Assembly: GCA_020348445.1 (NCBI GenBank)
Contig: CP070751.1
Span: forward strand, 4,588,960 to 4,652,959
Length of the DNA: 64,000 bases
Reading direction: 5' to 3'
Source: Thermoplasmata archaeon
Lineage (GTDB): Archaea; Thermoplasmatota; Thermoplasmata; GCA-020350865
Shown: positions 24,598 to 55,005 of the stretch, in pieces
How the letters are laid out: the number at the start of each line of letters is the position of its first letter
How positions within the stretch are numbered: the first letter of the stretch is position 1
Notes under the pieces: generated by a model
What the model saw: only the letters and a program-made list of their open reading frames with translations
The model's database searches: none
What the model was told of the DNA's origin: nothing
Translations under genes and position numbers: made by a program

Positions 24598-25597
24598 TGT
24601 AAAGTAAACAGACATCGGTAACATTCTTTTTCATTTTAACCCGTTAGGGTCTGAGGAATCGGGATGGGATGCTTAGACCCCGAAACGAGGCGATTAATGG
24701 TAAACGCAGTCAGAAATGGACATAAGGTAGGAGAAGTTGCAGAGATATTCGATGTTAGTAGGAAAACCGTATGGAAATGGTGTAAACGGACTATGAAGGT
24801 GGGTAGACCAGTCTACAAGGATCTACCAAAACGTCCGCATACAATTCATAAAAGGGTAACAGAAGCCGCAGAAGTAGCTATAATAGTTCTACGGGAGGCG
24901 TTCAACTGGGGTACACAGCGAATTAAGCTCAATCTTGAACGCCCTCCCTCATATATTCGTACCCTGCTGGAAAGTACTACAGGGAAAGAATGGAAACCTA
25001 TTATATTGAGCAGACAGGCCATTAACAATGTCTTGAAGAAGCATGATATAAACGGTAGTCCTTACAAGAGCAAGAGGGACTGGAACTATTTTAGAGCTTC
25101 GAGACCTGACGAACTCTGGCAGATCGATATCAGGGGACCGATAAGGATAGGTAAAATAAGAGGTTATGTCCTTGTCATACTGGATGACTATTCCAGATAT
25201 CTGATCTGGTGTAAATTCTATGAGAGGATTACCACCAAGGTGGTTCTCTCTGCGTTGTCTTACCTGGCTGTAACAAGGAAGAGAAAGCCACAAAAGATAC
25301 TTGTGGATAATGGAACCCAATTTAAGATATCTTTTGAGAATGGCTGTAAAGATATGGAAATCGAGGTCGAACACACCCCTCCCTATTACCCCCAATGCAA
25401 GGGTAAGGTAGAACGGGTAATTCGGACCTTTAATGAGGAATTCCTCAGGGTTTGCAGTGTATTTGATAACTCCCATGCCCTGATGCCTGAGTTCCAGGCA
25501 TGGTATAATGATTCTCGTTACCATATGGGCATATCTGATTTTCCAAATGAACTATATAACAACCATTTCGATGTTACCTATGTCCCTTGACATTACA
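24598..25597 (+). mobile_element. IS481-family insertion sequence, 1000 bp
   Basis: TGT...ACA ends; 27-bp terminal inverted repeats 24598-24624 and 25571-25597 matching 22/27; transposase stop inside right IR. Confidence 0.9.
24664..25590 (+). CDS. IS481-family DDE transposase
   Basis: N-terminal HTH; RPDELWQID, ILVDNGTQF, KGKVERVIRTFNEE integrase core. Confidence 0.92.
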   Translation: MGCLDPETRRLMVNAVRNGHKVGEVAEIFDVSRKTVWKWCKRTMKVGRPVYKDLPKRPHTIHKRVTEAAEVAIIVLREAFNWGTQRIKLNLERPPSYIRTLLESTTGKEWKPIILSRQAINNVLKKHDINGSPYKSKRDWNYFRASRPDELWQIDIRGPIRIGKIRGYVLVILDDYSRYLIWCKFYERITTKVVLSALSYLAVTRKRKPQKILVDNGTQFKISFENGCKDMEIEVEHTPPYYPQCKGKVERVIRTFNEEFLRVCSVFDNSHALMPEFQAWYNDSRYHMGISDFPNELYNNHFDVTYVP

Positions 25598-49440: not shown

Positions 49441-49573
49441 GGGCAGAAATCGTTTACTGAAGTATATTATACTTTGTTTCTACGGGATTAAAAGGGCAGA
49501 GCCCTTTGTGAGATAAAGATAAATCTTTAAAAAATCGAAATTGTTAAATCTGGACATTATTATTACACACTAT

Positions 49574-51523
49574 ATGAATAGGAAGATAGTCGCAGTTTGG
49601 ATTACTGTGATAATGATGGTAAGCACTATTGTTATTATTGTTGAGATTGCACCTAGGATTGAGGCTCCGACAACATGGTATGTCGATGATAGTAATCCCG
49701 GACCTGGAGATGGATCACCGGGCAATCCCTTTAAAACTATTCAGGCTGGTGTGGATAATGCTACTCCTGGGGATACGGTTTATGTTTTTAATGGGACATA
49801 TTATGAGAATCTGGTGGTGAATAAGACGATAAATCTGACTGGGGAAGACAGACATAACACCATAATTGATGGTGGGGGAAATGGGGATGTTGTTTATATA
49901 AATGTAAGTTGGGTGAATATTACAGGATTCACTGTTACTAACGGAGGATGCGGTATTATTCTTGACTCGTCATCGAACAATAATATAACGCACAACAATA
50001 TTTCATCAAATACCGCCCATGGCTTCTACCTCCCGTCATTTTCAAACAACAACATCATAATTGACAATAATTTTTTGAATAATGGGAAAGGCATCTATGT
50101 TTCCATGGGTATCTATCTTTCTACATCATCAGATAATAATATAATAGCGAATAACAATTTTTCATCAAATTACGGCGGTATCCTGATTGATTCATCATCG
50201 AATACCAACATAACTAACAACAATGTTTTAAATAATGAATATGGCATCGTTATTGACTCATCAGAAAACAACATAATTATGGAGAACAACATTTCATTCA
50301 ATAAGTGGTATGGTATCGAGTTTAGCTTTTCATCGAATAATAGCATAATAAATAATAGTGTGACAAACAATGATCATGGCATCTACCTCTATACATCATC
50401 AAACAACATCTTAATAGGTAATAATGTTTCATCGAATGGTGAAGACGGTATCTACCTTTACTTATCATCTAGCAGCAACATAATTGTCACTAACATTGCT
50501 TCAAACAGTTTATTCGGTATCTATATCTCCTCATCATCAAATAACAACACAGTGATGGGTAACAATATATCAAAAAACTTTTACGGTATCTTTCTTCATT
50601 CGTCGTCTAACAATAATGTGACAAATAACCTCGTCAATTTGAATAACGGTATAGGCCTCTTGCTTGATGGGTCATCATATAACAATATCATAGGTAACAC
50701 TTTCTCCTCAAACAAAATTTATGGCATTTATTTAGTAGATTCGAGTAATAATAATACATTCCATCATAATAACATTATAAACAATGTAAACCAGACGATT
50801 TTAGAGAACACCACATGTTTCGATACCAAGTGGGATGATGGTAACGGTAAAGGTAACTACTGGAGTGACTACAAAGGTGTAGACGATGGTAGCAATGGAA
50901 GAACAGCGGGAGATGGTGTTGGTGATACTGAGATTCCACATCCATATACTGATCAGGGGGATGGGTATTACCAATTAGATAATTATCCACTCATAGATAC
51001 TGTTGGGGATTTTATTTTGCTATACGAAGGATGGAACCTCATCTCTATTCCAATGATTCAATCAAATAAAAATCTTGGTATTGTTCTATCCTCCATTACC
51101 GACTTCTATAACTCAGTTCAATGGTATAACACATCCGACACGAATGACCCCTGGAAACACAACCACACTGGAAAACCACAATATTTAAACGATTTAAACA
51201 GCCTCGATAATATTTTAGGTTTCTGGATATACATAACTGAGCCCGATGGGGTTTTATTTGAATACTCCGGCACCCAACCAACCCAAAACCAAACCATTAC
51301 CCTCCACCCAGGTTGGAACATGGTAGGCTATCCATCCCTTTCAAACCACAATCGAACAGTTGGAATGAACAACCTCACATTCGGGGATCATGTGGATGCA
51401 ATCTGGACCTATGATTCTGGAACGCTAAAATGGGAAAAGATGGGTGAATCAGATTATTTTAAGATAGGCAGGGGATATTACATTCATGCCAAGACCAAAT
51501 GTGAGTGGGAAGTTCCTTTGTGA
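49574..51523 (+). CDS. Secreted NosD/beta-helix protein with C-terminal L..GWN domains
   Basis: Signal peptide, PFKTIQAGVDNA, 22-aa repeats, GNYWSDY, LYEGWNLISIP and LHPGWNMVGYP; ATG 49574. Confidence 0.85.
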   Translation: MNRKIVAVWITVIMMVSTIVIIVEIAPRIEAPTTWYVDDSNPGPGDGSPGNPFKTIQAGVDNATPGDTVYVFNGTYYENLVVNKTINLTGEDRHNTIIDGGGNGDVVYINVSWVNITGFTVTNGGCGIILDSSSNNNITHNNISSNTAHGFYLPSFSNNNIIIDNNFLNNGKGIYVSMGIYLSTSSDNNIIANNNFSSNYGGILIDSSSNTNITNNNVLNNEYGIVIDSSENNIIMENNISFNKWYGIEFSFSSNNSIINNSVTNNDHGIYLYTSSNNILIGNNVSSNGEDGIYLYLSSSSNIIVTNIASNSLFGIYISSSSNNNTVMGNNISKNFYGIFLHSSSNNNVTNNLVNLNNGIGLLLDGSSYNNIIGNTFSSNKIYGIYLVDSSNNNTFHHNNIINNVNQTILENTTCFDTKWDDGNGKGNYWSDYKGVDDGSNGRTAGDGVGDTEIPHPYTDQGDGYYQLDNYPLIDTVGDFILLYEGWNLISIPMIQSNKNLGIVLSSITDFYNSVQWYNTSDTNDPWKHNHTGKPQYLNDLNSLDNILGFWIYITEPDGVLFEYSGTQPTQNQTITLHPGWNMVGYPSLSNHNRTVGMNNLTFGDHVDAIWTYDSGTLKWEKMGESDYFKIGRGYYIHAKTKCEWEVPL

Positions 51524-51524
51524 G
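51474..51524 (+). repeat. Left copy of 51-bp direct repeat flanking the tRNA array
   Basis: 46/51 identical to 54758-54808; is the 3' end of the NosD gene. Confidence 0.9.
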
Positions 51525-51611
51525 ACTTTTAGGATTAAATAAAATAAATCAAAGATGGAATAAGAAAACTATTTCATTACAATAGTATTCAATAATAATT
51601 ATAATAAAGAG

Positions 51612-51772
51612 CGGTGACGGCAGGATTCGAACCTGCATGCCCCCGAAGGGACCTGGATATTTGTGGCAAAGACTCCATTCCATCGAATGCATTCGATTCT
51701 GGTGAGCCATAGCATTCTGTTGAATACCATAAGCATTCAAATCCAGTGCGTTTGCCATTTCGCTACGTCACC
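51612..51772 (-). tRNA. tRNA-Ser(TGA) with 77-nt intron at 37/38
   Basis: GGTGACG/CGTCACC acceptor, G73, CTGGA-TTTGAA|A-TCCAG, long variable arm, TTCGAAT; BHB imperfect. Confidence 0.7.
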
Positions 51773-51777
51773 AAATG

Positions 51778-51850
51778 CGCTCCCGATGAGATTCGAACTC
51801 ACGTTGCCTGGTCGAAAGCCAGCCATGCTTGACCTCTACATTACGGGAGC
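51778..51850 (-). tRNA. tRNA-Glu(TTC)
   Basis: GCTCCCG/CGGGAGC acceptor, loop CTTTCGA, TTCGAAT. Confidence 0.85.
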
Positions 51851-51857
51851 ATTATAG

Positions 51858-51931
51858 AGATGGGGGTGAGACTTGCACTCACAATCATCTGATCTGCAGT
51901 CAGAGGCATTCTCTATTTCTGCCAACCCATC
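51858..51931 (-). tRNA. tRNA-Cys(GCA), atypical D and T loops
   Basis: TCTGA-CTGCAGA-TCAGA, U73; T-loop TGCAAGT, D-loop lacks GG. Confidence 0.75.
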
Positions 51932-51934
51932 ATC

Positions 51935-52011
51935 TGGTAGGTGTGCCGGGATTTGAACCTGGAATAACCACCTTGTAAGGGTAGCTGCATTACCTGCAAT
52001 GCTTCACACCC
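51935..52011 (-). tRNA. tRNA-Val(TAC), CCA encoded
   Basis: Loop CTTACAA, TTCAAAT, A73-CCA. Confidence 0.8.
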
Positions 52012-52405
52012 CCCACGATCTCACATGTTCTGCGTAAGGGTGAGAAAGTATCAGCTCAAGGTTCTGCTCCGCAATGAGCACGATCCATAGGAAAAAGAGG
52101 ATTAAAGCCTCGATGTCCTGTTTTGGATGTAATTCTTCCTTTGTAAGTTGAGCCTTGATTTCCCTGAGCTTCTTTTTGTTTCTATGATATCCTATCTTCG
52201 TTTCGGCATGGATTTTGAAGTGGCACCCTCTGCACTTAATCACTGTGTTTTCCAGTGTGTCCAGTCCACCTCTTTTCTTTGGGATCTTGTGATGAATCGT
52301 CAGGTTCTGAGTTATTCCACATTCCGTGCATTGATTGTAATCAAGGACAAGCCTCATTCTCTTAAGAAGAGGCCTTGGTAGTTCCTCTTTCATGTTGTAC
52401 TTCAT
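52004..52405 (-). CDS. HNH endonuclease within tRNA array
   Basis: CxxC...IHHKIP...GG...N....CxxCH..IH; GGTGA RBS before ATG 52405; stop overlaps tRNA-Val 5' end. Confidence 0.85.
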   Translation of the reverse strand: MKYNMKEELPRPLLKRMRLVLDYNQCTECGITQNLTIHHKIPKKRGGLDTLENTVIKCRGCHFKIHAETKIGYHRNKKKLREIKAQLTKEELHPKQDIEALILFFLWIVLIAEQNLELILSHPYAEHVRSWGV

Positions 52406-52429
52406 TTTTTTCACCCTTTCATCTGGGAG

Positions 52430-52503
52430 TGGAATCGGGTGGATTCGAACCACCAGCCTTCTCCTTGCAAGGGAGATGCTCTTTCCAGTTGAGCTACGAT
52501 CCC
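52430..52503 (-). tRNA. tRNA-Ala(TGC)
   Basis: Canonical cloverleaf, G3:U70, loop CTTGCAA. Confidence 0.93.
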
Positions 52504-52507
52504 ATGA

Positions 52508-52675
52508 TGGTGCAGGAGGTAGGATTCGAACCTACGATGTTAGCCCTATGGCGACAGATTTCCCAGAGCAAGTCTTTGAGTTTACTCACCTAAGTTTGCT
52601 CACCTTTAAGTTTGAGCCTCAGAAGAGCGTACCCTTCTTAGTCTGCCCTCTTCGACCATGCTCAAGCACTCCTGC
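52508..52675 (-). tRNA. tRNA-Leu, anticodon AAG as written, 76-nt intron at 37/38, CCA encoded
   Basis: Archaeal Leu-type D arm and variable arm, A73; GCAGA-CTAAGA|A-TCTGT; 7+7 nt BHB geometry. Confidence 0.75.
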
Positions 52676-52683
52676 GTATGAGG

Positions 52684-52755
52684 TGCAAGATACGGGAGTC
52701 GAACCCGTCTCACCTGCTTGGAGGGCAGGTATGTCGCCTCCAACACCTATCTTGC
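52684..52755 (-). tRNA. tRNA-Gly(TCC) with C33
   Basis: CCTGC-CCTCCAA-GCAGG, TTCGACT, perfect acceptor. Confidence 0.8.
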
Positions 52756-52763
52756 ATATGATA

Positions 52764-52835
52764 TGCGCCCGGAGAGCTTCGAACCCTCTTTTCCTCGCTG
52801 GCTACGAGGTAGTCTACCCATTGACTTACGAGCGC
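52764..52835 (-). tRNA. tRNA-Gly(GCC) with A33
   Basis: CCTCG-TAGCCAG-CGAGG; T-loop TTCGAAG; identity less certain. Confidence 0.65.
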
Positions 52836-52850
52836 AGAAGAAAGACCAAA

Positions 52851-52948
52851 TAGGCGTGGGGGGATTCGAACCCCCAATCTCCCCTTTATCAGAAGGGTGC
52901 GTTGACGGCTCATAAGACCGTTGCGATGCCAGGTTACGCCACACGCCT
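52851..52948 (-). tRNA. tRNA-Ile(GAT) with 24-nt insertion forming a second TAT anticodon-like arm
   Basis: AGGCGTG/CACGCCT acceptor, CCCTT-CTGATAA-AGGGG, insert 52903-52926. Confidence 0.75.
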
Positions 52949-52955
52949 ATTCTGA

Positions 52956-53055
52956 TAGTGCCGGGAGGATCCGGCCCTCCATTACCAAGTTTCTTTTAAG
53001 GTCTGTAAACATTCCAAAATCAAAGCCTGGAGTGTTACCATTACACTACGGCACT
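52956..53055 (-). tRNA. tRNA-Gln(TTG) with 29-nt intron at 37/38
   Basis: A1:U72, CCAGG-CTTTGA|A-CTTGG, BHB helix CTTT/AAAG; abnormal T-loop GCCGGAT. Confidence 0.75.
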
Positions 53056-53111
53056 GAAGAAGAAAGATAGAACTAGGACATAGAAGAAGACAAAAGAGAA
53101 TCTTTTTTCCC

Positions 53112-53214
53112 ACCATATCCTAATAAAATCCTTCTTACAGCAAATGGTCTATCTGACCGACAGCTGCGGATGAGAGGAGCACCGAGCTCCGCGTCTCACC
53201 TAATAGGATATGGT
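53112..53214 (-). ncRNA. Candidate structured RNA (multibranch) downstream of internal promoter
   Basis: 11-bp closing stem 53112-53122/53204-53214 with two inner hairpins; strand inferred from TATA at 53244-53252. Confidence 0.5.
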
Positions 53215-53243
53215 ACATTAGCTTCCCCGTATGTAAGAAGTTA

Positions 53244-53252
53244 TATTTATAA
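53244..53252 (-). promoter_or_regulatory. Putative TATA box for third tRNA sub-operon
   Basis: TTATAAATA on minus strand about 30 nt before the structured RNA. Confidence 0.45.
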
Positions 53253-53290
53253 TTTGCAGTTGATTTTGGATTTTTTTATTTCTAATAAAA

Positions 53291-53364
53291 TGGAGAGGAT
53301 GGGATTCGAACCCATGACGACCGGTTCTTCAAACCGGCGAACTCCCATGCTGTTCTACCTCTCC
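53291..53364 (-). tRNA. tRNA-Phe(GAA)
   Basis: Fully paired cloverleaf, loop TTGAAGA. Confidence 0.92.
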
Positions 53365-53369
53365 ATGAA

Positions 53370-53441
53370 TCTGCCCCGGGAGATTCGAACTCCCTCATCA
53401 TGGTCTACAGCCATGCATGCTACCATTGACATCAGGGGCAG
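53370..53441 (-). tRNA. tRNA-Tyr(GTA), archaeal type
   Basis: C1:G72, A73, short variable loop, loop CTGTAGA. Confidence 0.88.
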
Positions 53442-53448
53442 TAAAAAA

Positions 53449-53573
53449 TGAGCCTGGAGGGATTCGAACCCCCGATCTTTCGGATTTCTTCCATTAGAGC
53501 TAAATTCGGATCAGCATAGTAAGTTCTAATGCTAAGAGTCCGCTGCTCTAATTCCTAGCTGAGCTACAGGCCC
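53449..53573 (-). tRNA. tRNA-Lys(CTT) with 47-nt intron at 37/38
   Basis: GCGGA-CTCTTA|A-TCCG; BHB with 7-bp intron stem CATTAGA/TCTAATG. Confidence 0.88.
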
Positions 53574-53577
53574 ATAA

Positions 53578-53653
53578 TGGCGGTAGGGGCCGGACTTGCA
53601 CCGACGTTGGCCTGATTAACAGTCAGGAACCATAGCTTCTCGGCCACCCTACC
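53578..53653 (-). tRNA. tRNA-Asn(GTT), atypical D and T loops, CCA encoded
   Basis: CCTGA-CTGTTAA-TCAGG, G73-CCA; T-loop TGCAAGT, D-loop lacks GG. Confidence 0.8.
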
Positions 53654-53672
53654 AAATCGAATTAGTAAAAAA

Positions 53673-53769
53673 TGGGAAGTGCAGGATTTGAACCTACATC
53701 CAGTGGAATCTTTATTTCTTTAAAAAAACACCCAAACCACCGAGTCTATCCAGGTTAGCCTAACTCCCC
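53673..53769 (-). tRNA. tRNA-Pro(TGG) with 23-nt intron at 37/38
   Basis: GGTGG-TTTGGG|T-CCACT, AT-rich intron hairpin, TTCAAAT. Confidence 0.8.
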
Positions 53770-53789
53770 AAAACAAGTAAGAAAATACC

Positions 53790-53869
53790 TGACACTAATC
53801 CAACACGTTTCGAATCCAAGCCCTATGGCCTAAAGGGCTTATTTGGTTTATATGTTGATGTTTGTGTCA
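53790..53869 (-). ncRNA. Candidate rod-like hairpin RNA downstream of internal promoter
   Basis: Nested stems TGACAC/GTGTCA, CAACA/TGTTG, AAGCCCT/AGGGCTT. Confidence 0.5.
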
Positions 53870-53894
53870 TAAGCGCAGTGTATGTTAGTTTTGT

Positions 53895-53902
53895 TATATA
53901 AA
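53895..53902 (-). promoter_or_regulatory. Putative TATA box for second tRNA sub-operon
   Basis: TTTATATA preceded by A-rich BRE-like run; predicted start about 53871. Confidence 0.5.
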
Positions 53903-54025
53903 ATTTTTTAAGAACCAGCAAGGAAATTCGAAAGTCAGAAACATAGCCTCCGCTAACCCCATTGTCCGATTTATATTTTTGATACATCATGTGTATCTGT
54001 GGGCCTTAATTAGGGCGAATGAAAG

Positions 54026-54158
54026 CGCCCACCGAGGGACTCGAACCCCCACAAACCAGATATCTCCAGAGCGATAATAACGGATATAGAAGTATCACCT
54101 TCCGTAGTTTCACCTTCCTTTCAGGAATCTGGTGCACTATCCATTATACTAGGTGGGC
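54026..54158 (-). tRNA. tRNA-Arg(CCT) with 60-nt intron at 37/38
   Basis: CCAGA-TTCCTG|A-TCTGG, BHB helix TTCC/GGAG, A20 in D-loop, G73. Confidence 0.85.
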
Positions 54159-54165
54159 ATATGAG

Positions 54166-54240
54166 CGGTCAGGAGGGGATTTGAACCCCTATCAAAGGAG
54201 TGACAGTCCAGTATGCTAACCTGTTTTACACCACCTGACC
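54166..54240 (-). tRNA. tRNA-Asp(GTC)
   Basis: Loop CTGTCAC, G73, TTCAAAT; anticodon stem only 3 bp. Confidence 0.75.
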
Positions 54241-54246
54241 ATTAGA

Positions 54247-54315
54247 TGGGTTGGATAGGATTTGCACCCATGTTGGCGGTTTTGGAGACCGACGTATTCT
54301 GGCATTGCTCAACCC
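54247..54315 (-). tRNA. tRNA-Trp(CCA) with reduced D-arm
   Basis: CGGT-CTCCAAA-ACCG; T-loop TGCAAAT; only about 69 nt. Confidence 0.6.
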
Positions 54316-54322
54316 ATGAGGA

Positions 54323-54393
54323 TGGGAAAAGTAGGAATCGAACCCACAATAAGAGAGTCACAGTCTCCCGGTTTACCATTAACCTATTTCCCC
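54323..54393 (-). tRNA. tRNA-His(GTG), atypical acceptor end
   Basis: GGAGA-CTGTGAC-TCTCT, GGTT/AACC D-stem, TTCGATT; A73 rather than C73. Confidence 0.75.
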
Positions 54394-54442
54394 TTCACGA
54401 ATCTTTTAAAATAATCTGATGAGCTTCCTTTTTTTAAGTAGA

Positions 54443-54514
54443 TAACGAGAGGGGAATCGAACCCACCAACATCGGGTCATGGGCCCGACGGTTTTCCAAT
54501 TAGCCTATCTCGAT
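54443..54514 (-). tRNA. tRNA-Met(CAT), initiator-like
   Basis: A1:U72, three G:C pairs TCGGG/CCCGA, loop CCCATGA (C33); irregular T-stem. Confidence 0.75.
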
Positions 54515-54532
54515 ATGCAGAACTTAAAAAGA

Positions 54533-54607
54533 AGCCACCGGCGGGAATCGAACCTGCGTGGTCTTTCTTACAAGGAAAGTGCAAAAGCCAACATTTGCTA
54601 CGGTGGC
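54533..54607 (-). tRNA. tRNA-Thr(TGT)
   Basis: GCCACCG/CGGTGGC, U73, CTTTC-CTTGTAA-GAAAG. Confidence 0.9.
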
Positions 54608-54619
54608 AGAAAGTTCGAG

Positions 54620-54686
54620 CTACATCAGAAAATTATTGCGAGTGCGTGGCCTTCGTCTATGCCACTTTCTCGTATCTGTGATGTAG
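54620..54686 (-). ncRNA. Candidate rod-like hairpin RNA at head of tRNA array
   Basis: Nested stems CTACATCA/TGATGTAG, CGAG/CTCG, GTGGC/GCCAC. Confidence 0.5.
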
Positions 54687-54732
54687 TTATTCATGTTACC
54701 ACCGAATTAAGCATCGGTTATGTAAGATATGG

Positions 54733-54748
54733 TATTTAAATTTACCGA
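54733..54748 (-). promoter_or_regulatory. Putative BRE/TATA promoter of the tRNA array
   Basis: Minus strand TCGGTAAA-TTTAAATA upstream of first tRNA. Confidence 0.6.
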
Positions 54749-54757
54749 AAGGTAAAA

Positions 54758-54808
54758 GATATTACATCCACGCCAAGACAAAATATGAGTGGGAAGTTCC
54801 ATTGTGAG
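54758..54808 (+). pseudogene. Orphan 3' end (about 16 codons + stop) of a NosD-gene paralogue; right copy of the 51-bp repeat
   Basis: Encodes YYIHAKTKYEWEVPL* versus YYIHAKTKCEWEVPL* at 51474; 4 of 5 differences synonymous. Confidence 0.8.
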
Positions 54809-54861: not shown

Positions 54862-55005
54862 TGGGCGCGCAAAAAGGGGCTTGTCGGTGGATTGGGAGGT
54901 CAGGGGAAACGGTGGAGATGGGTTACGGGTAGGGTTGGATTTTTTGGTGATTGATCAGGCAATAACGCTCGTATTTCGTATACAATCTGCGGGTGTTAAC
55001 GCTCT
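54862..55005. repeat. Composite repeat copy 11 (A plus B units)
   Basis: Module A variant at 54865, TAACGCTC units from 54963. Confidence 0.88.

What the first reader, a model, noticed from the sequence alone, without database searches (positions are those of the whole stretch)
51612..54748. Compact archaeal tRNA array with one tRNA for every amino acid
21 tRNA genes in about 3 kb, all on the minus strand: Thr, Met, His, Trp, Asp, Arg, Pro, Asn, Lys, Tyr, Phe, Gln, Ile, Gly x2, Leu, Ala, Val, Cys, Glu, Ser. That is all 20 amino acids with only Gly doubled (seen). Identity elements are archaeal (Tyr C1:G72 with short variable loop, Gln A1:U72, BHB introns), so the donor was an archaeon or archaeal virus (inference). 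Large tRNA arrays are known from phages and some integrative elements, but archaeal chromosomal tRNAs are normally dispersed. A non-redundant, intron-rich full set in an accessory region suggests a portable tRNA-replacement module, e.g. against tRNA-cleaving toxins or defence nucleases (inference).
Basis: partly seen in the sequence, partly recalled or inferred. Interest (0 to 1): 0.9.

Follow-up and report, generated by a model that had tools for sequence, protein, structure and literature searches.

The report
Mobile spare tRNA set in archaeon
A 3.2-kb cassette carrying one tRNA gene for each of the 20 amino acids plus a small HNH nuclease gene sits in a variable island of an archaeal chromosome; the same cassette, kept intact by selection, occurs at other places in related genomes, so it is a portable spare tRNA set of a kind known from bacteria, phages and two other archaeal classes.

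Summary
Rfam accepts 19. ARAGORN accepts 20 of 21 after intron removal. Trp is weak.

The host has its own dispersed, intron-rich tRNA for all 20 amino acids. The array copies are only 53-82% identical to them, so the array is supernumerary.

The same array plus its internal HNH gene occurs on at least seven other metagenome or MAG contigs (85-91% identical; six independent versions), at different loci. One of those insertion sites is empty in this genome. Four congeneric genomes lack the array.

Across seven versions, tRNA stems vary 5-6 times less than spacers or HNH third codon positions. 35 base pairs show compensatory changes. The tRNAs are therefore under selection, not pseudogenes. HNH third codon positions are more alike than those of chromosomal flank genes, which points to horizontal exchange.

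No integrase, virus genes or IMG/VR match were found.

The function is inferred: a backup tRNA set, possibly against tRNA-targeting nucleases. Circumstantial support is U33 variation in 7 of 20 tRNAs and toxin or defence-candidate neighbours.

It is a new member of the known "tRNA array unit" kind. This scan has not noted the array on other DNA.

The parts
54733..54740 (-). TATA-box-like element 1 (TTTAAATA). Start of the conserved module is at about 54751.
   Evidence: Read from the sequence. Conserved in all six arrays that cover it. Homology between arrays begins 10-20 nt upstream of it.
54608..54715 (-). Conserved non-tRNA leader 1 (two hairpins) in front of Thr
   Evidence: Diversity 0.133 against 0.293 for spacers. 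Consensus fold -24 kcal/mol. No Rfam family.
54533..54607 (-). tRNA-Thr (UGU)
   Evidence: Rfam 46.3 bits; ARAGORN; 2 compensatory pairs
54443..54514 (-). tRNA-Met (CAU), initiator type. C33. U2.U71 mismatch in this copy only.
   Evidence: Rfam 34.6 bits. A1:U72 and GGG/CCC in the anticodon stem. The other five arrays have G2:C71.
54323..54393 (-). tRNA-His (GUG) with A at -1 and A73 (no G-1:C73)
   Evidence: Rfam 66.4 bits. Most conserved protein-free element (diversity 0.026). Host His has G-1:C73. No Thg1 in the genome.
54247..54315 (-). Probable tRNA-Trp (CCA), non-canonical (G8, T-loop UGCAAAU, no GG in the D-loop)
   Evidence: Rfam 24.5 bits, below cut-off. Not called by ARAGORN. Conserved in 6 arrays (diversity 0.08) with 2 compensatory pairs.
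54166..54240 (-). tRNA-Asp (GUC)
   Evidence: Rfam 55.6 bits; 6 compensatory pairs against L025
54026..54158 (-). tRNA-Arg (CCU) with 60-nt intron at 37/38 (54062-54121)
   Evidence: Rfam 43.2 bits. Bulge-helix-bulge: central helix 4/4, outer 4/4, inner 3/4.
53895..53903 (-). TATA-box-like element 2
   Evidence: Sequence; conserved across arrays
53770..53885 (-). Conserved non-tRNA leader 2
   Evidence: Diversity 0.114; consensus fold -25 kcal/mol
53673..53769 (-). tRNA-Pro (UGG) with 23-nt intron at 37/38 (53708-53730)
   Evidence: Rfam 34.1 bits. ARAGORN. Bulge-helix-bulge 3/4, 4/4, 4/4.
53581..53653 (-). tRNA-Asn (GUU). T-loop UGCAAGU, no GG in the D-loop.
   Evidence: Rfam 51.4 bits
53449..53573 (-). 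tRNA-Lys (CUU) with 47-nt intron at 37/38 (53486-53532)
   Evidence: Rfam 42.2 bits. Bulge-helix-bulge 3/4, 4/4, 4/4. 82% identical to host Lys(CUU).
53370..53441 (-). tRNA-Tyr (GUA), C1:G72
   Evidence: Rfam 39.2 bits
53291..53364 (-). tRNA-Phe (GAA)
   Evidence: Rfam 62.6 bits
53243..53252 (-). TATA-box-like element 3
   Evidence: Sequence; conserved
53056..53228 (-). Conserved non-tRNA leader 3 (about 170 nt, several hairpins)
   Evidence: Diversity 0.102; consensus fold -55 kcal/mol; no Rfam family
52956..53055 (-). tRNA-Gln (UUG), A1:U72, 29-nt intron at 37/38 (52991-53019), odd T-loop
   Evidence: Rfam 45.2 bits. Bulge-helix-bulge central helix 4/4. The 5' half is deleted in L025.
52851..52948 (-). 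tRNA-Ile with two anticodon-arm-like hairpins (UAU and GAU)
   Evidence: Rfam 56 bits, read as GAU with a D-loop insert. Both hairpins are conserved and carry covarying pairs; a D-stem C:G to U:A change favours the UAU reading. No clean bulge-helix-bulge.
52764..52835 (-). tRNA-Gly (GCC), A33
   Evidence: Rfam 45.5 bits; position 33 is A, C or U among arrays
52684..52755 (-). tRNA-Gly (UCC), C33, A8
   Evidence: Rfam 45.2 bits; 4 compensatory pairs
52511..52675 (-). tRNA-Leu (AAG; UAG in L024), long variable arm, A73, 76-nt intron at 37/38 (52560-52635)
   Evidence: ARAGORN on the spliced form. Cloverleaf fit. Bulge-helix-bulge 3/4, 4/4, 4/4. Missed by Rfam.
52430..52503 (-). tRNA-Ala (UGC), G3:U70
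   Evidence: Rfam 71.2 bits
52004..52405 (-). HNH endonuclease ORF (133 aa from the ATG). Its stop codon lies inside the Val acceptor stem.
   Evidence: Pfam PF01844 E=1.9e-9. 11 homologue clusters at 65-94% identity, and every one whose DNA could be read lies inside the same array. Codon-position diversity 0.164/0.097/0.360.
51938..52011 (-). tRNA-Val (UAC), A8
   Evidence: Rfam 47.4 bits
51858..51931 (-). tRNA-Cys (GCA), U73. T-loop UGCAAGU, no GG in the D-loop.
   Evidence: Rfam 46.1 bits
51778..51850 (-). tRNA-Glu (UUC)
   Evidence: Rfam 55.9 bits
51612..51772 (-). tRNA-Ser (UGA), long variable arm, G73, 77-nt intron at 37/38 (51659-51735)
   Evidence: Rfam 49 bits. Relaxed splice motif, central helix 2/4. 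Intron diversity 0.047.
51524..51611 (-). AT- and T-rich trailer. The module ends at 51524 in the L022 comparison.
   Evidence: Homology with L022 stops at 51524, one base after the stop codon of the flanking gene.
54740..54807 (+). Orphan 3' end of a NosD/beta-helix surface-protein gene (ends ...YYIHAKTKYEWEVPL*). It forms a direct repeat with 51456-51523.
   Evidence: 77-nt repeat, 81% identical. Translation. The same C-terminal module ends many paralogues in the genome.
49541..51523 (+). Flanking NosD/beta-helix surface-protein gene (660 aa), convergent with the array
   Evidence: Pfam NosD 9.4e-46
54862..54940 (-). Copy of a C-rich ~75-nt intergenic repeat (core GCCCCTTTTTGCGCGCCC) just upstream of the array
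   Evidence: 17 co-oriented copies, confined to two islands of the genome. A copy also follows the array in L027, and one fills the empty site at G000 2342751-2342868.

Best explanation
SHOWN: this is a self-contained, supernumerary tRNA array unit. It holds 21 archaeal-type tRNA genes, one per amino acid with Gly twice, plus one HNH endonuclease gene. The genes lie behind three TATA-like elements, each followed by a conserved leader. The array sits in a hypervariable chromosomal island rich in surface-protein, toxin-antitoxin and defence-candidate genes. The same 3.2-kb module occurs in related archaea at different loci. Between some lineages it is less diverged than the chromosome, so it moves horizontally as a unit. 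Its tRNAs and its HNH gene are under purifying selection.

INFERRED: the tRNAs are transcribed as three polycistronic precursors, trimmed by RNase P and RNase Z, spliced by the host endonuclease at bulge-helix-bulge motifs, and charged by host synthetases. Their identity elements fit archaeal rules, except for His. The set then serves as a sequence-divergent spare pool, mostly cognate to the most used codon of each family. This pool would keep translation going when the housekeeping tRNAs, which need up to three splicing events, are limiting or are being cleaved by RNase toxins, defence nucleases or viruses.

How the cassette moves is not known. The linked HNH nuclease (homing-type break and repair) and recombination at the flanking repeats are the candidates.
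For: Real and supernumerary: searches confirm the tRNA genes. The host has its own genes for all 20 amino acids outside the array, including Cys, His, Trp, Asn and Glu(UUC).

Not recent host duplicates: 53-82% identity to host cognates, whereas host isoacceptors are 77-88% alike.

Conserved module elsewhere: HNH homologues at 65-94% identity lie in the same array on L018-L028, with 17-19 Rfam tRNAs each on the five contigs scanned.

Selection: diversity is 0.060 in stems, 0.095 in loops and 0.090 in introns, against 0.293 in spacers and 0.360 at HNH third positions. Of 437 pairs, 337 are invariant and paired, 35 show compensatory changes and 35 show one-sided changes that keep a pair. 96% of cells are paired. 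Anticodon positions 35 and 36 never change.

Mobility: the array in L022 lies between sequences that adjoin in G000 at 2342868|2342751. The flanks of L018 and L024 map to other points of the same G000 island. There is no array in four congeners, one of them a closed genome. HNH third-position identity to L022, L024 and L025 is 0.69, 0.64 and 0.63, against 0.40-0.52, 0.49 and 0.44-0.57 for chromosomal flank genes.

Backup or anti-nuclease idea: array anticodons match the most used codon in most families. U33, normally invariant, varies in 7 of 20 tRNAs (18 of 130 cells), while all host tRNAs examined but one have U33. This recalls the anticodon-loop changes of phage tRNAs proposed to evade anticodon nucleases (PMC10264068). 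Neighbours include HEPN+MNT, a KAP NTPase, an AAA_14 ATPase (PADLOC candidate PDC-S01), a NYN RNase, and weak BrnT-like and DUF4258 matches paired with MazE-like genes. A bacterial L-array is induced under translational stress and aids survival (PMC8421152).
Against: No expression, processing or charging data exist. The set cannot decode all codons on its own. It has no elongator Met. Arg CCU, Lys CUU and Leu AAG read one or few codons.

tRNA-His lacks G-1:C73, and no Thg1 was found to add it. In this genome's copy the initiator has a U2.U71 mismatch where the other arrays have G:C. Trp is below Rfam's cut-off.

U33 variation could reflect relaxed constraint on rarely used tRNAs rather than evasion. 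The defence-type neighbours differ from locus to locus and several matches are weak. Islands of this sort collect such genes anyway. No recombinase, target-site duplication or terminal repeat defines the cassette.
Confidence: 0.55

Rival explanations
1. Plain dosage or codon-supply booster. The array only raises the supply of tRNAs for the commonest codons, giving faster or more efficient translation. This is the classical view of tRNA arrays. No link to tRNA damage or defence is involved.
For: Array anticodons are cognate to the most used codon for Thr, Pro, Ala, Ser, Gly, Leu (CUU), Ile (AUA), Glu and Gln. Most array genes lack introns (15 of 21), whereas host genes carry up to three. Tran et al. 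(PMC4758250) found that arrays favour redundancy of core isoacceptors.
Against: Lys CUU, Arg CCU and Val UAC are not the top codons. Four congeners do without the array, one of them a closed genome. Many array tRNAs carry features expected to lower, not raise, translational efficiency: non-U33, G55 T-loops without G18G19, and His without G-1.
Confidence: 0.2
2. Old chromosomal cluster of this lineage, inherited vertically. It has been shuffled passively by rearrangement of a hypervariable island and lost in some species. It is not a mobile unit.
For: All array-bearing contigs have flanks related to this genome (65-92% nucleotide identity). Three of four map to the same G000 island at 2.31-2.35 Mb. 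Lys and Glu are 76-82% identical to host tRNAs. For the closest relative, L018, HNH and flank genes are equally diverged (0.84 against 0.85).
Against: For L022, L024 and L025 the array's third codon positions are clearly less diverged than chromosomal genes on the same contigs. In G000 the array sits in a different island (4.64 Mb) from the one that is occupied elsewhere and empty here. It is absent from four congeneric species.
Confidence: 0.1
3. Selfish cargo or relic of a virus or plasmid. The HNH homing endonuclease drives the spread of the block and the tRNAs served the former element, as in T4/T5-like phages. There is little benefit to the present host.
For: An HNH gene is embedded in every copy. 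Free-standing homing endonucleases in phage tRNA regions are established (own knowledge). Two haloarchaeal arrays were flagged as proviral (PMC6333295).
Against: No capsid, terminase, integrase or replication genes lie next to any of the five contexts. IMG/VR gave no hit for the HNH protein or for a 37-mer of tRNA-His. Strong purifying selection on 21 tRNAs in chromosomal copies is hard to explain without use in the cell.
Confidence: 0.1
4. Decaying, non-functional tRNA pseudogene array.
For: Trp is below the Rfam cut-off. This copy's initiator has a U.U mismatch. His lacks G-1. Several tRNAs have non-canonical U33, U8 or T-loops. L025 has lost half of Gln and L018 has lost Gly(GCC).
Against: tRNA stems are 5-6 times less variable than spacers or HNH third positions. 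There are 35 compensatory pairs, and anticodons are invariant across seven versions.
Confidence: 0.03

Closest known systems
Archaeal tRNA gene clusters of Halobacteria and Methanobacteria (Morgado & Vicente 2019, PMC6333295), e.g. Haloarcula vallismortis (25 tRNAs in 3.6 kb, all 20 isotypes)
   Same: Dense cluster of archaeal-type tRNAs (7 per kb), redundant with the dispersed host set. All 20 isotypes are present. HNH endonuclease and toxin-antitoxin genes are in the neighbourhood, and there is evidence of horizontal transfer.
   Different: That survey found clusters only in Halobacteria and Methanobacteria, plus bacterial-type ones in Methanosarcina. Here the host has 41.5% G+C and intron-rich dispersed tRNAs. 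Earlier notes of this scan call it Thermoplasmata; I did not verify that. Six of the 21 genes have introns (0-2 per cluster there). The HNH gene lies inside the array. There is no sign of a plasmid or provirus. Sequence relationship to those clusters was not tested.
Bacterial tRNA array units / L-arrays (Tran et al. 2015, PMC4758250; Santamaria-Gomez et al. 2021, PMC8421152)
   Same: Meets the definition of at least 20 tRNA genes at 2 or more per kb. Supernumerary, horizontally disseminated, and mostly one gene per isotype. The proposed role is an auxiliary tRNA pool.
   Different: Archaeal identity elements and bulge-helix-bulge introns. Three TATA-type promoter elements with conserved leaders. 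Expression and stress induction are unknown here.
Phage tRNA clusters with free-standing homing endonucleases (T4/T5-like phages; own knowledge), and phage tRNAs that evade tRNA-targeting defences (PMC10264068, PMC11464382, PMC11555353)
   Same: tRNA block with an embedded small nuclease gene. The tRNAs differ from the host's, and anticodon loops vary at positions flanking an unchanged anticodon.
   Different: Chromosomal, with no viral genes around it and no match in IMG/VR. No nuclease target or resistance has been tested.

Membership tests
tRNA array unit (Tran et al. 2015) | At least 20 tRNA genes in one region | tested here: met
   21 genes. 19 reach the Rfam gathering score. 20 are called by ARAGORN after intron removal.
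tRNA array unit (Tran et al. 2015) | Density of at least 2 tRNA genes per kb | tested here: met
   21 genes in 2996 bp (51612-54607), which is 7.0 per kb.
L-array (Santamaria-Gomez et al. 2021) | Supernumerary to a housekeeping tRNA set | tested here: met
   The host has genes for all 20 amino acids outside the array.
L-array (Santamaria-Gomez et al. 2021) | Disseminated by horizontal transfer | tested here: met
   Different loci, and one insertion site empty in G000. HNH third-position identity is above that of chromosomal flank genes in 3 of 4 comparisons. Absent from four congeners.
L-array (Santamaria-Gomez et al. 2021) | Silent in normal growth, induced under translational stress | not testable with these tools
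   No expression data are available.
Archaeal tRNA gene cluster (Morgado & Vicente 2019) | At least 10 archaeal-type tRNA genes at 2 or more per kb | tested here: met
   Tyr C1:G72, Gln and initiator A1:U72, and bulge-helix-bulge introns at 37/38.
Provirus or virus-borne tRNA cluster | Lies within a viral genome (capsid, terminase or integrase genes nearby, or a match to viral contigs) | tested here: not met
   Pfam and PHROGs on the flanks of five contexts show none. No PF00589 integrase lies near either island. IMG/VR scans were negative.
Integrative element with att duplication | Site-specific recombinase plus flanking direct repeats that derive from the target | tested here: inconclusive
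   A 77-nt, 81% identical direct repeat (the 3' end of a surface-protein gene) brackets the array here and in L018. It is absent in L022, L024 and L025. The repeat is a module shared by dozens of paralogues. No recombinase was found.
Free-standing HNH homing endonuclease | HNH catalytic motif | tested here: met
   PF01844 E=1.9e-9. Weak PDB matches to the HNH regions of IscB, McrA and a group II maturase.
Free-standing HNH homing endonuclease | Cleaves the endonuclease-free allele and spreads by repair | not testable with these tools
   Every array version carries the gene, so no HNH-free array is available for comparison. A biochemical test is needed.

The most novel reading that the evidence does not exclude
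The cassette is a mobile 'translation insurance' module shaped by an arms race with tRNA-cutting nucleases. On this reading its tRNAs keep their anticodons and synthetase identity elements. They vary exactly where anticodon nucleases and other tRNases read their targets. Examples are U33 toggling among U, C and A in a third of the tRNAs, G55 T-loops paired with GG-less D-loops in Trp, Asn and Cys, and a His without G-1. Cells or elements that carry the cassette would survive tRNA-directed toxins or defence. The cassette would hop between repeat-punctuated cassette islands by HNH-initiated repair or by repeat recombination. This would be the first such system in Archaea.
Probability: 0.2. Interest if true: 0.85.

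Novelty: new member of a known kind. Interest (0 to 1): 0.58.

Why it matters
What tRNA arrays are for is still debated: dosage, stress reserve or counter-defence. Archaeal examples are few and come from only two classes.

This case offers seven naturally diverged versions of one array. Together they show clear purifying selection, compensatory evolution, movement between loci, and an unusual pattern of change at the normally invariant U33.

That gives concrete candidates to test: which host or neighbouring RNases cut host tRNAs but not array tRNAs, and whether U33C/A tRNAs are decoded.

It also shows that tRNAs with bulge-helix-bulge introns travel as a block. This bears on how tRNA introns and tRNA-targeting mobile elements spread in archaea.

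Tried and rejected
1. att-site reading of the 77-nt direct repeat. It is the conserved 3' end of a large paralogous surface-protein family and is missing at three other insertion sites. I do not accept it as an att site, though it is not excluded.
2. Provirus or plasmid. No hallmark genes or integrase were found.
3. Looking for the array in public collections. Back-translated HNH peptides found nothing in genome contigs or viral contigs. An exact 37-mer of tRNA-His found nothing in viral, genome or metagenome contigs. The contigs that carry the array came only through the protein search, so those collections evidently do not hold them.
4. DNA search of 400 genomes of the same class found only single-tRNA matches at 77-86% identity (only two candidates were scored per genome).
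5. A relaxed genome-wide cloverleaf scan was too noisy to use.
6. A free-gap alignment of array tRNAs against unspliced host genes inflated identities. I replaced it with spliced-against-spliced alignment.
7. Removing either Ile hairpin as an intron gave no acceptable bulge-helix-bulge.
8. Naming the host. 'Thermoplasmata' rests on earlier unchecked notes.
9. I could not run tRNAscan-SE or SPLITS.

Full report
**Observation**

ARAGORN without introns finds 13 tRNA genes, all between 51777 and 54607 on the minus strand. Rfam's tRNA model reaches its gathering score for 19 genes there. With introns allowed, ARAGORN and my own cloverleaf fit add Leu at 52511-52675. Trp (54247-54315) scores 24.5 bits, below the 29-bit cut-off.

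Twenty-one genes in 2996 bp is 7.0 per kb. The rest of the 5.16-Mb single-contig genome has roughly one tRNA gene per 110 kb.

Six genes (Arg, Pro, Lys, Gln, Leu, Ser) have introns at 37/38. At those exact positions the bulge-helix-bulge geometry is well formed. The central helix pairs 4/4 for Arg and Gln and 3/4 for Pro, Lys and Leu, with 4/4 outer helices. Ser is relaxed at 2/4. I derived the geometry rule on a host pre-tRNA-Asp.

An ORF between Ala and Val (52004-52405) is an HNH endonuclease (PF01844, E=1.9e-9).

**Is the array the cell's only tRNA set?**

No. Outside the array the genome has tRNA genes for all 20 amino acids, most with one to three introns, some at non-canonical positions. 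The four isotypes first missing from my survey were then found:
- His at 797552-797755
- Trp at 4784168-4784382
- Asn at 4350263-4350356
- Cys at about 5002829, with a T-arm intron

Glu(UUC) lies at about 668240-668389 with two introns.

Spliced array tRNAs are only 53-82% identical to the host's cognate tRNAs (median about 65%; Lys 82%, Glu 76%). Host isoacceptors of one amino acid are typically 77-88% alike. The array is therefore supernumerary and is not a recent duplication of host genes.

**Type of tRNA**

The identity elements are archaeal and largely intact:
- Tyr C1:G72 with a short variable loop
- Gln A1:U72
- Ala G3:U70
- Cys U73
- Ser G73 and Leu A73, each with a long variable arm
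- Asp and Asn G73

The Met gene is an initiator (A1:U72, three G:C pairs at the base of the anticodon stem). There is no elongator Met.

Oddities:
- His has A at -1 and A73. The host's own tRNA-His has an encoded G-1 opposite C73. No Thg1 homologue is detectable in the genome.
- Trp, Asn and Cys share a UGCAAxU T-loop (G at 55) together with D-loops that lack GG.
- Met and Gly(UCC) have C33 and Gly(GCC) has A33.
- Val and Gly(UCC) have A8.
- Ile has two 5-bp/7-nt hairpins presenting UAU and GAU. Both are conserved with covarying pairs. One compensatory D-stem change favours the UAU reading. No clean splice motif removes either hairpin.

**The same array elsewhere**

The HNH protein has 11 homologue clusters at 65-94% identity in metagenomes and MAGs. 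Every contig I could fetch carries the same tRNA array around it:
- L018-L021 (JGI)
- L022 and L023 (NCBI GCA_964347255.1 and GCA_012974965.1)
- L024 and L025 (JGI)
- L026 (ENA)
- L027 and L028 (JGI)

Rfam finds 17-19 tRNAs on each of the five contigs scanned (L018, L022-L025), and L026-L028 match the array by BLAST. The versions are 85-91% identical to window 51524-54751.

Among seven distinct versions, mean pairwise diversity is as follows:

| Region | Diversity |
|---|---|
| tRNA stems | 0.060 |
| tRNA loops | 0.095 |
| Introns | 0.090 |
| Three non-tRNA leaders | 0.10-0.13 |
| Inter-gene spacers | 0.293 |
| HNH codon positions 1 / 2 / 3 | 0.164 / 0.097 / 0.360 |
| Beyond the module | about 0.48 |

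Of 437 cloverleaf pairs, 337 are invariant and paired. 35 show changes on both sides that keep the pair. 35 show one-sided wobble-compatible changes. 22 have a mismatch in some version and 8 are always mismatched. Overall 2690 of 2803 cells are standard pairs. Anticodons are unchanged in all versions, except Leu AAG/UAG.

This is the signature of functional RNAs and a functional protein gene, not of pseudogenes.

Individual versions have lesions. This genome's initiator has U2.U71 where the others have G:C. L018 lacks Gly(GCC). L025 lacks the 5' half of Gln.

**Mobility**

In L022 the array lies between two stretches that adjoin in this genome at 2342868|2342751. This genome therefore holds the empty site, filled only by a 117-bp C-rich repeat. 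The flanks of L018 map to G000 2345838 and 2345864, with 18 kb of different content between them. A flank of L024 maps to G000 2318067-2324052. In this genome the array sits 2.3 Mb away, in another island.

The four other species of the genus show neither the array nor an orthologue of this island. One of them is a closed 3.2-Mb genome. 400 sampled genomes of the class show only single-tRNA matches.

A divergence test supports horizontal exchange:

| Comparison with this genome | HNH third-position identity | Chromosomal genes on the same contig |
|---|---|---|
| L022 | 0.69 | 0.40-0.52 (TrkH, TrkA, MscS, radical SAM, GGR) |
| L024 | 0.64 | 0.49 |
| L025 | 0.63 | 0.44-0.57 |
| L018 (close relative) | 0.84 | 0.85 |

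How the cassette moves is open. No tyrosine integrase lies near either island. No viral or plasmid genes flank any of five contexts. IMG/VR has no match.

Homology between versions starts 10-20 nt before the first TATA-like box (about 54751). It ends between 51601 and 51524, in the T-rich trailer.

Here and in L018 the module is bracketed by a 77-nt, 81% identical direct repeat. One copy is the 3' end of a NosD-type surface-protein gene and the other is an orphan copy of such an end. This end is shared by dozens of paralogues and is absent at the other sites. It may mark recombination between paralogues rather than an att site.

A C-rich ~75-nt repeat (core GCCCCTTTTTGCGCGCCC) occurs 17 times, all co-oriented with the array, and only in the two islands. 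One copy lies just upstream of the array here. One follows the array in L027, and one fills the empty site. The HNH gene is the only protein always linked to the array. It is one of only two HNH genes in the genome.

**Architecture**

Three TATA-like boxes (54733-54740, 53895-53903, 53243-53252) are each followed about 10-12 nt later by a shared (C)TTACATA(A/C)C or CTAACATAC motif. After that comes a conserved, foldable 110-170-nt non-tRNA leader. The boxes head three groups:
- Thr to Arg
- Pro to Phe
- Gln to Ser, with HNH inside

Within groups the spacers are 3-14 nt, apart from 76 nt between Met and His (and longer gaps around HNH), which fits polycistronic precursors. That these boxes are promoters is an inference.

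**Function**

The array anticodons are mostly cognate to the most used codon of their family: ACA, CCA, GCA, UCA, GGA, CUU, AUA, GAA and CAA. But Lys CUU, Arg CCU and Leu AAG read few codons and elongator Met is missing. The set can supplement the host set but cannot replace it.

Position 33 is the most variable anticodon-loop position across versions. It varies in 7 of 20 tRNAs, and 18 of 130 cells are not U. Positions 35 and 36 never vary. All host tRNAs examined but one have U33. Anticodon-loop changes around a fixed anticodon are what van den Berg et al. proposed for phage tRNAs that escape anticodon nucleases (PMC10264068).

The neighbours are typical of defence and toxin islands:
- HEPN+MNT
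- KAP NTPase
- AAA_14 ATPases (PADLOC candidate PDC-S01)
- a NYN RNase
- weak BrnT-like and DUF4258 matches paired with MazE-like genes

These points make a backup or counter-nuclease role the most attractive reading, but they are circumstantial. A plain supply role or relaxed constraint cannot be excluded.

**Comparison with what is known**

The region meets the published definition of a tRNA array unit: at least 20 genes at 2 or more per kb (PMC4758250). It behaves like the horizontally spread, supernumerary L-arrays of bacteria (PMC8421152).

In Archaea, clusters of 10-29 archaeal-type tRNAs have been described in Halobacteria and Methanobacteria. One of them has all 20 isotypes, and HNH and toxin-antitoxin genes lie nearby (PMC6333295). 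That survey found none in other archaeal groups.

This case adds another lineage and an intron-rich array with an internal HNH gene. It also provides a comparative series that demonstrates selection and movement. It is a new member of a known kind, with some unusual tRNAs.

**Caveats**

- The host's class name (Thermoplasmata) comes from earlier unchecked notes of this scan.
- My host tRNA census is hand-built and may miss genes.
- The HGT test rests on one 134-codon gene.
- Nothing here shows expression.

Noticed in passing
window 34714, 35399, 41317, 45420, 47688, 48596, 54862, 59692 (minus strand); also G000 2313755-2354154: A C-rich ~75-nt intergenic repeat (core GCCCCTTTTTGCGCGCCC) occurs 17 times, always co-oriented. 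It is confined to two accessory islands and separates gene 'cassettes' (surface proteins, toxin-antitoxin pairs, the tRNA array). It could be a recombination or regulatory site. No enzyme is linked to it.
   Followed up: partly
L018:8120-8335 (after array tRNA-Asp), L024 after array tRNA-Lys; G000 4743630-4743716 (behind host tRNA-Thr CGU): A ~105-nt hairpin-rich element is inserted at the 3' end of array tRNAs in two other array versions. Each insertion duplicates the tRNA's last ~15 nt. One related copy (84% identical) sits right behind a host tRNA-Thr. It looks like the tRNA-end-riding element family that earlier notes of this scan described.
   Followed up: partly
window 54608-54715, 53770-53885, 53056-53228 (minus strand): Three conserved, structured non-tRNA RNAs (110-170 nt) follow the three TATA-like boxes. 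They are about as conserved as tRNA loops across seven arrays. They have no Rfam family. Their role (processing leader or small RNA) is unknown.
   Followed up: partly
G000 797552-797755 (tRNA-His) and 4029909-4030156 (tRNA-Arg UCG): Two host tRNA genes carry long introns that share a similar internal sequence with several GC-rich hairpins. This suggests a repeated or mobile intron module.
   Followed up: no
G000 223989, 1131963, 3896745, 3899331, 3899737: There are five intron-less tRNA-Gln genes. One is of bacterial type (U1:A72, G73) and one has C33. Several are preceded by repeated copies of their own 5' end at spacings of about 95 nt and more. The same pattern is seen upstream of tRNA-Ala at 368700 (spacing ~72 nt). 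These may be integration scars or small repeat arrays.
   Followed up: no
G000 1864505 (Leu UAA), 1942925 (Arg CCU), 4743739 (Thr CGU); integrase fragments at 1864225-1864380 and 2412539-2412649: Some intron-less dispersed tRNAs look bacterial in sequence style. Two tRNA genes have tyrosine-integrase fragments beside them, probably remnants of integrated elements.
   Followed up: no
window 24664-25590 (+): There is an IS-type transposase (rve integrase core plus HTH) about 10 kb before the first C-rich repeat of the island.
   Followed up: no
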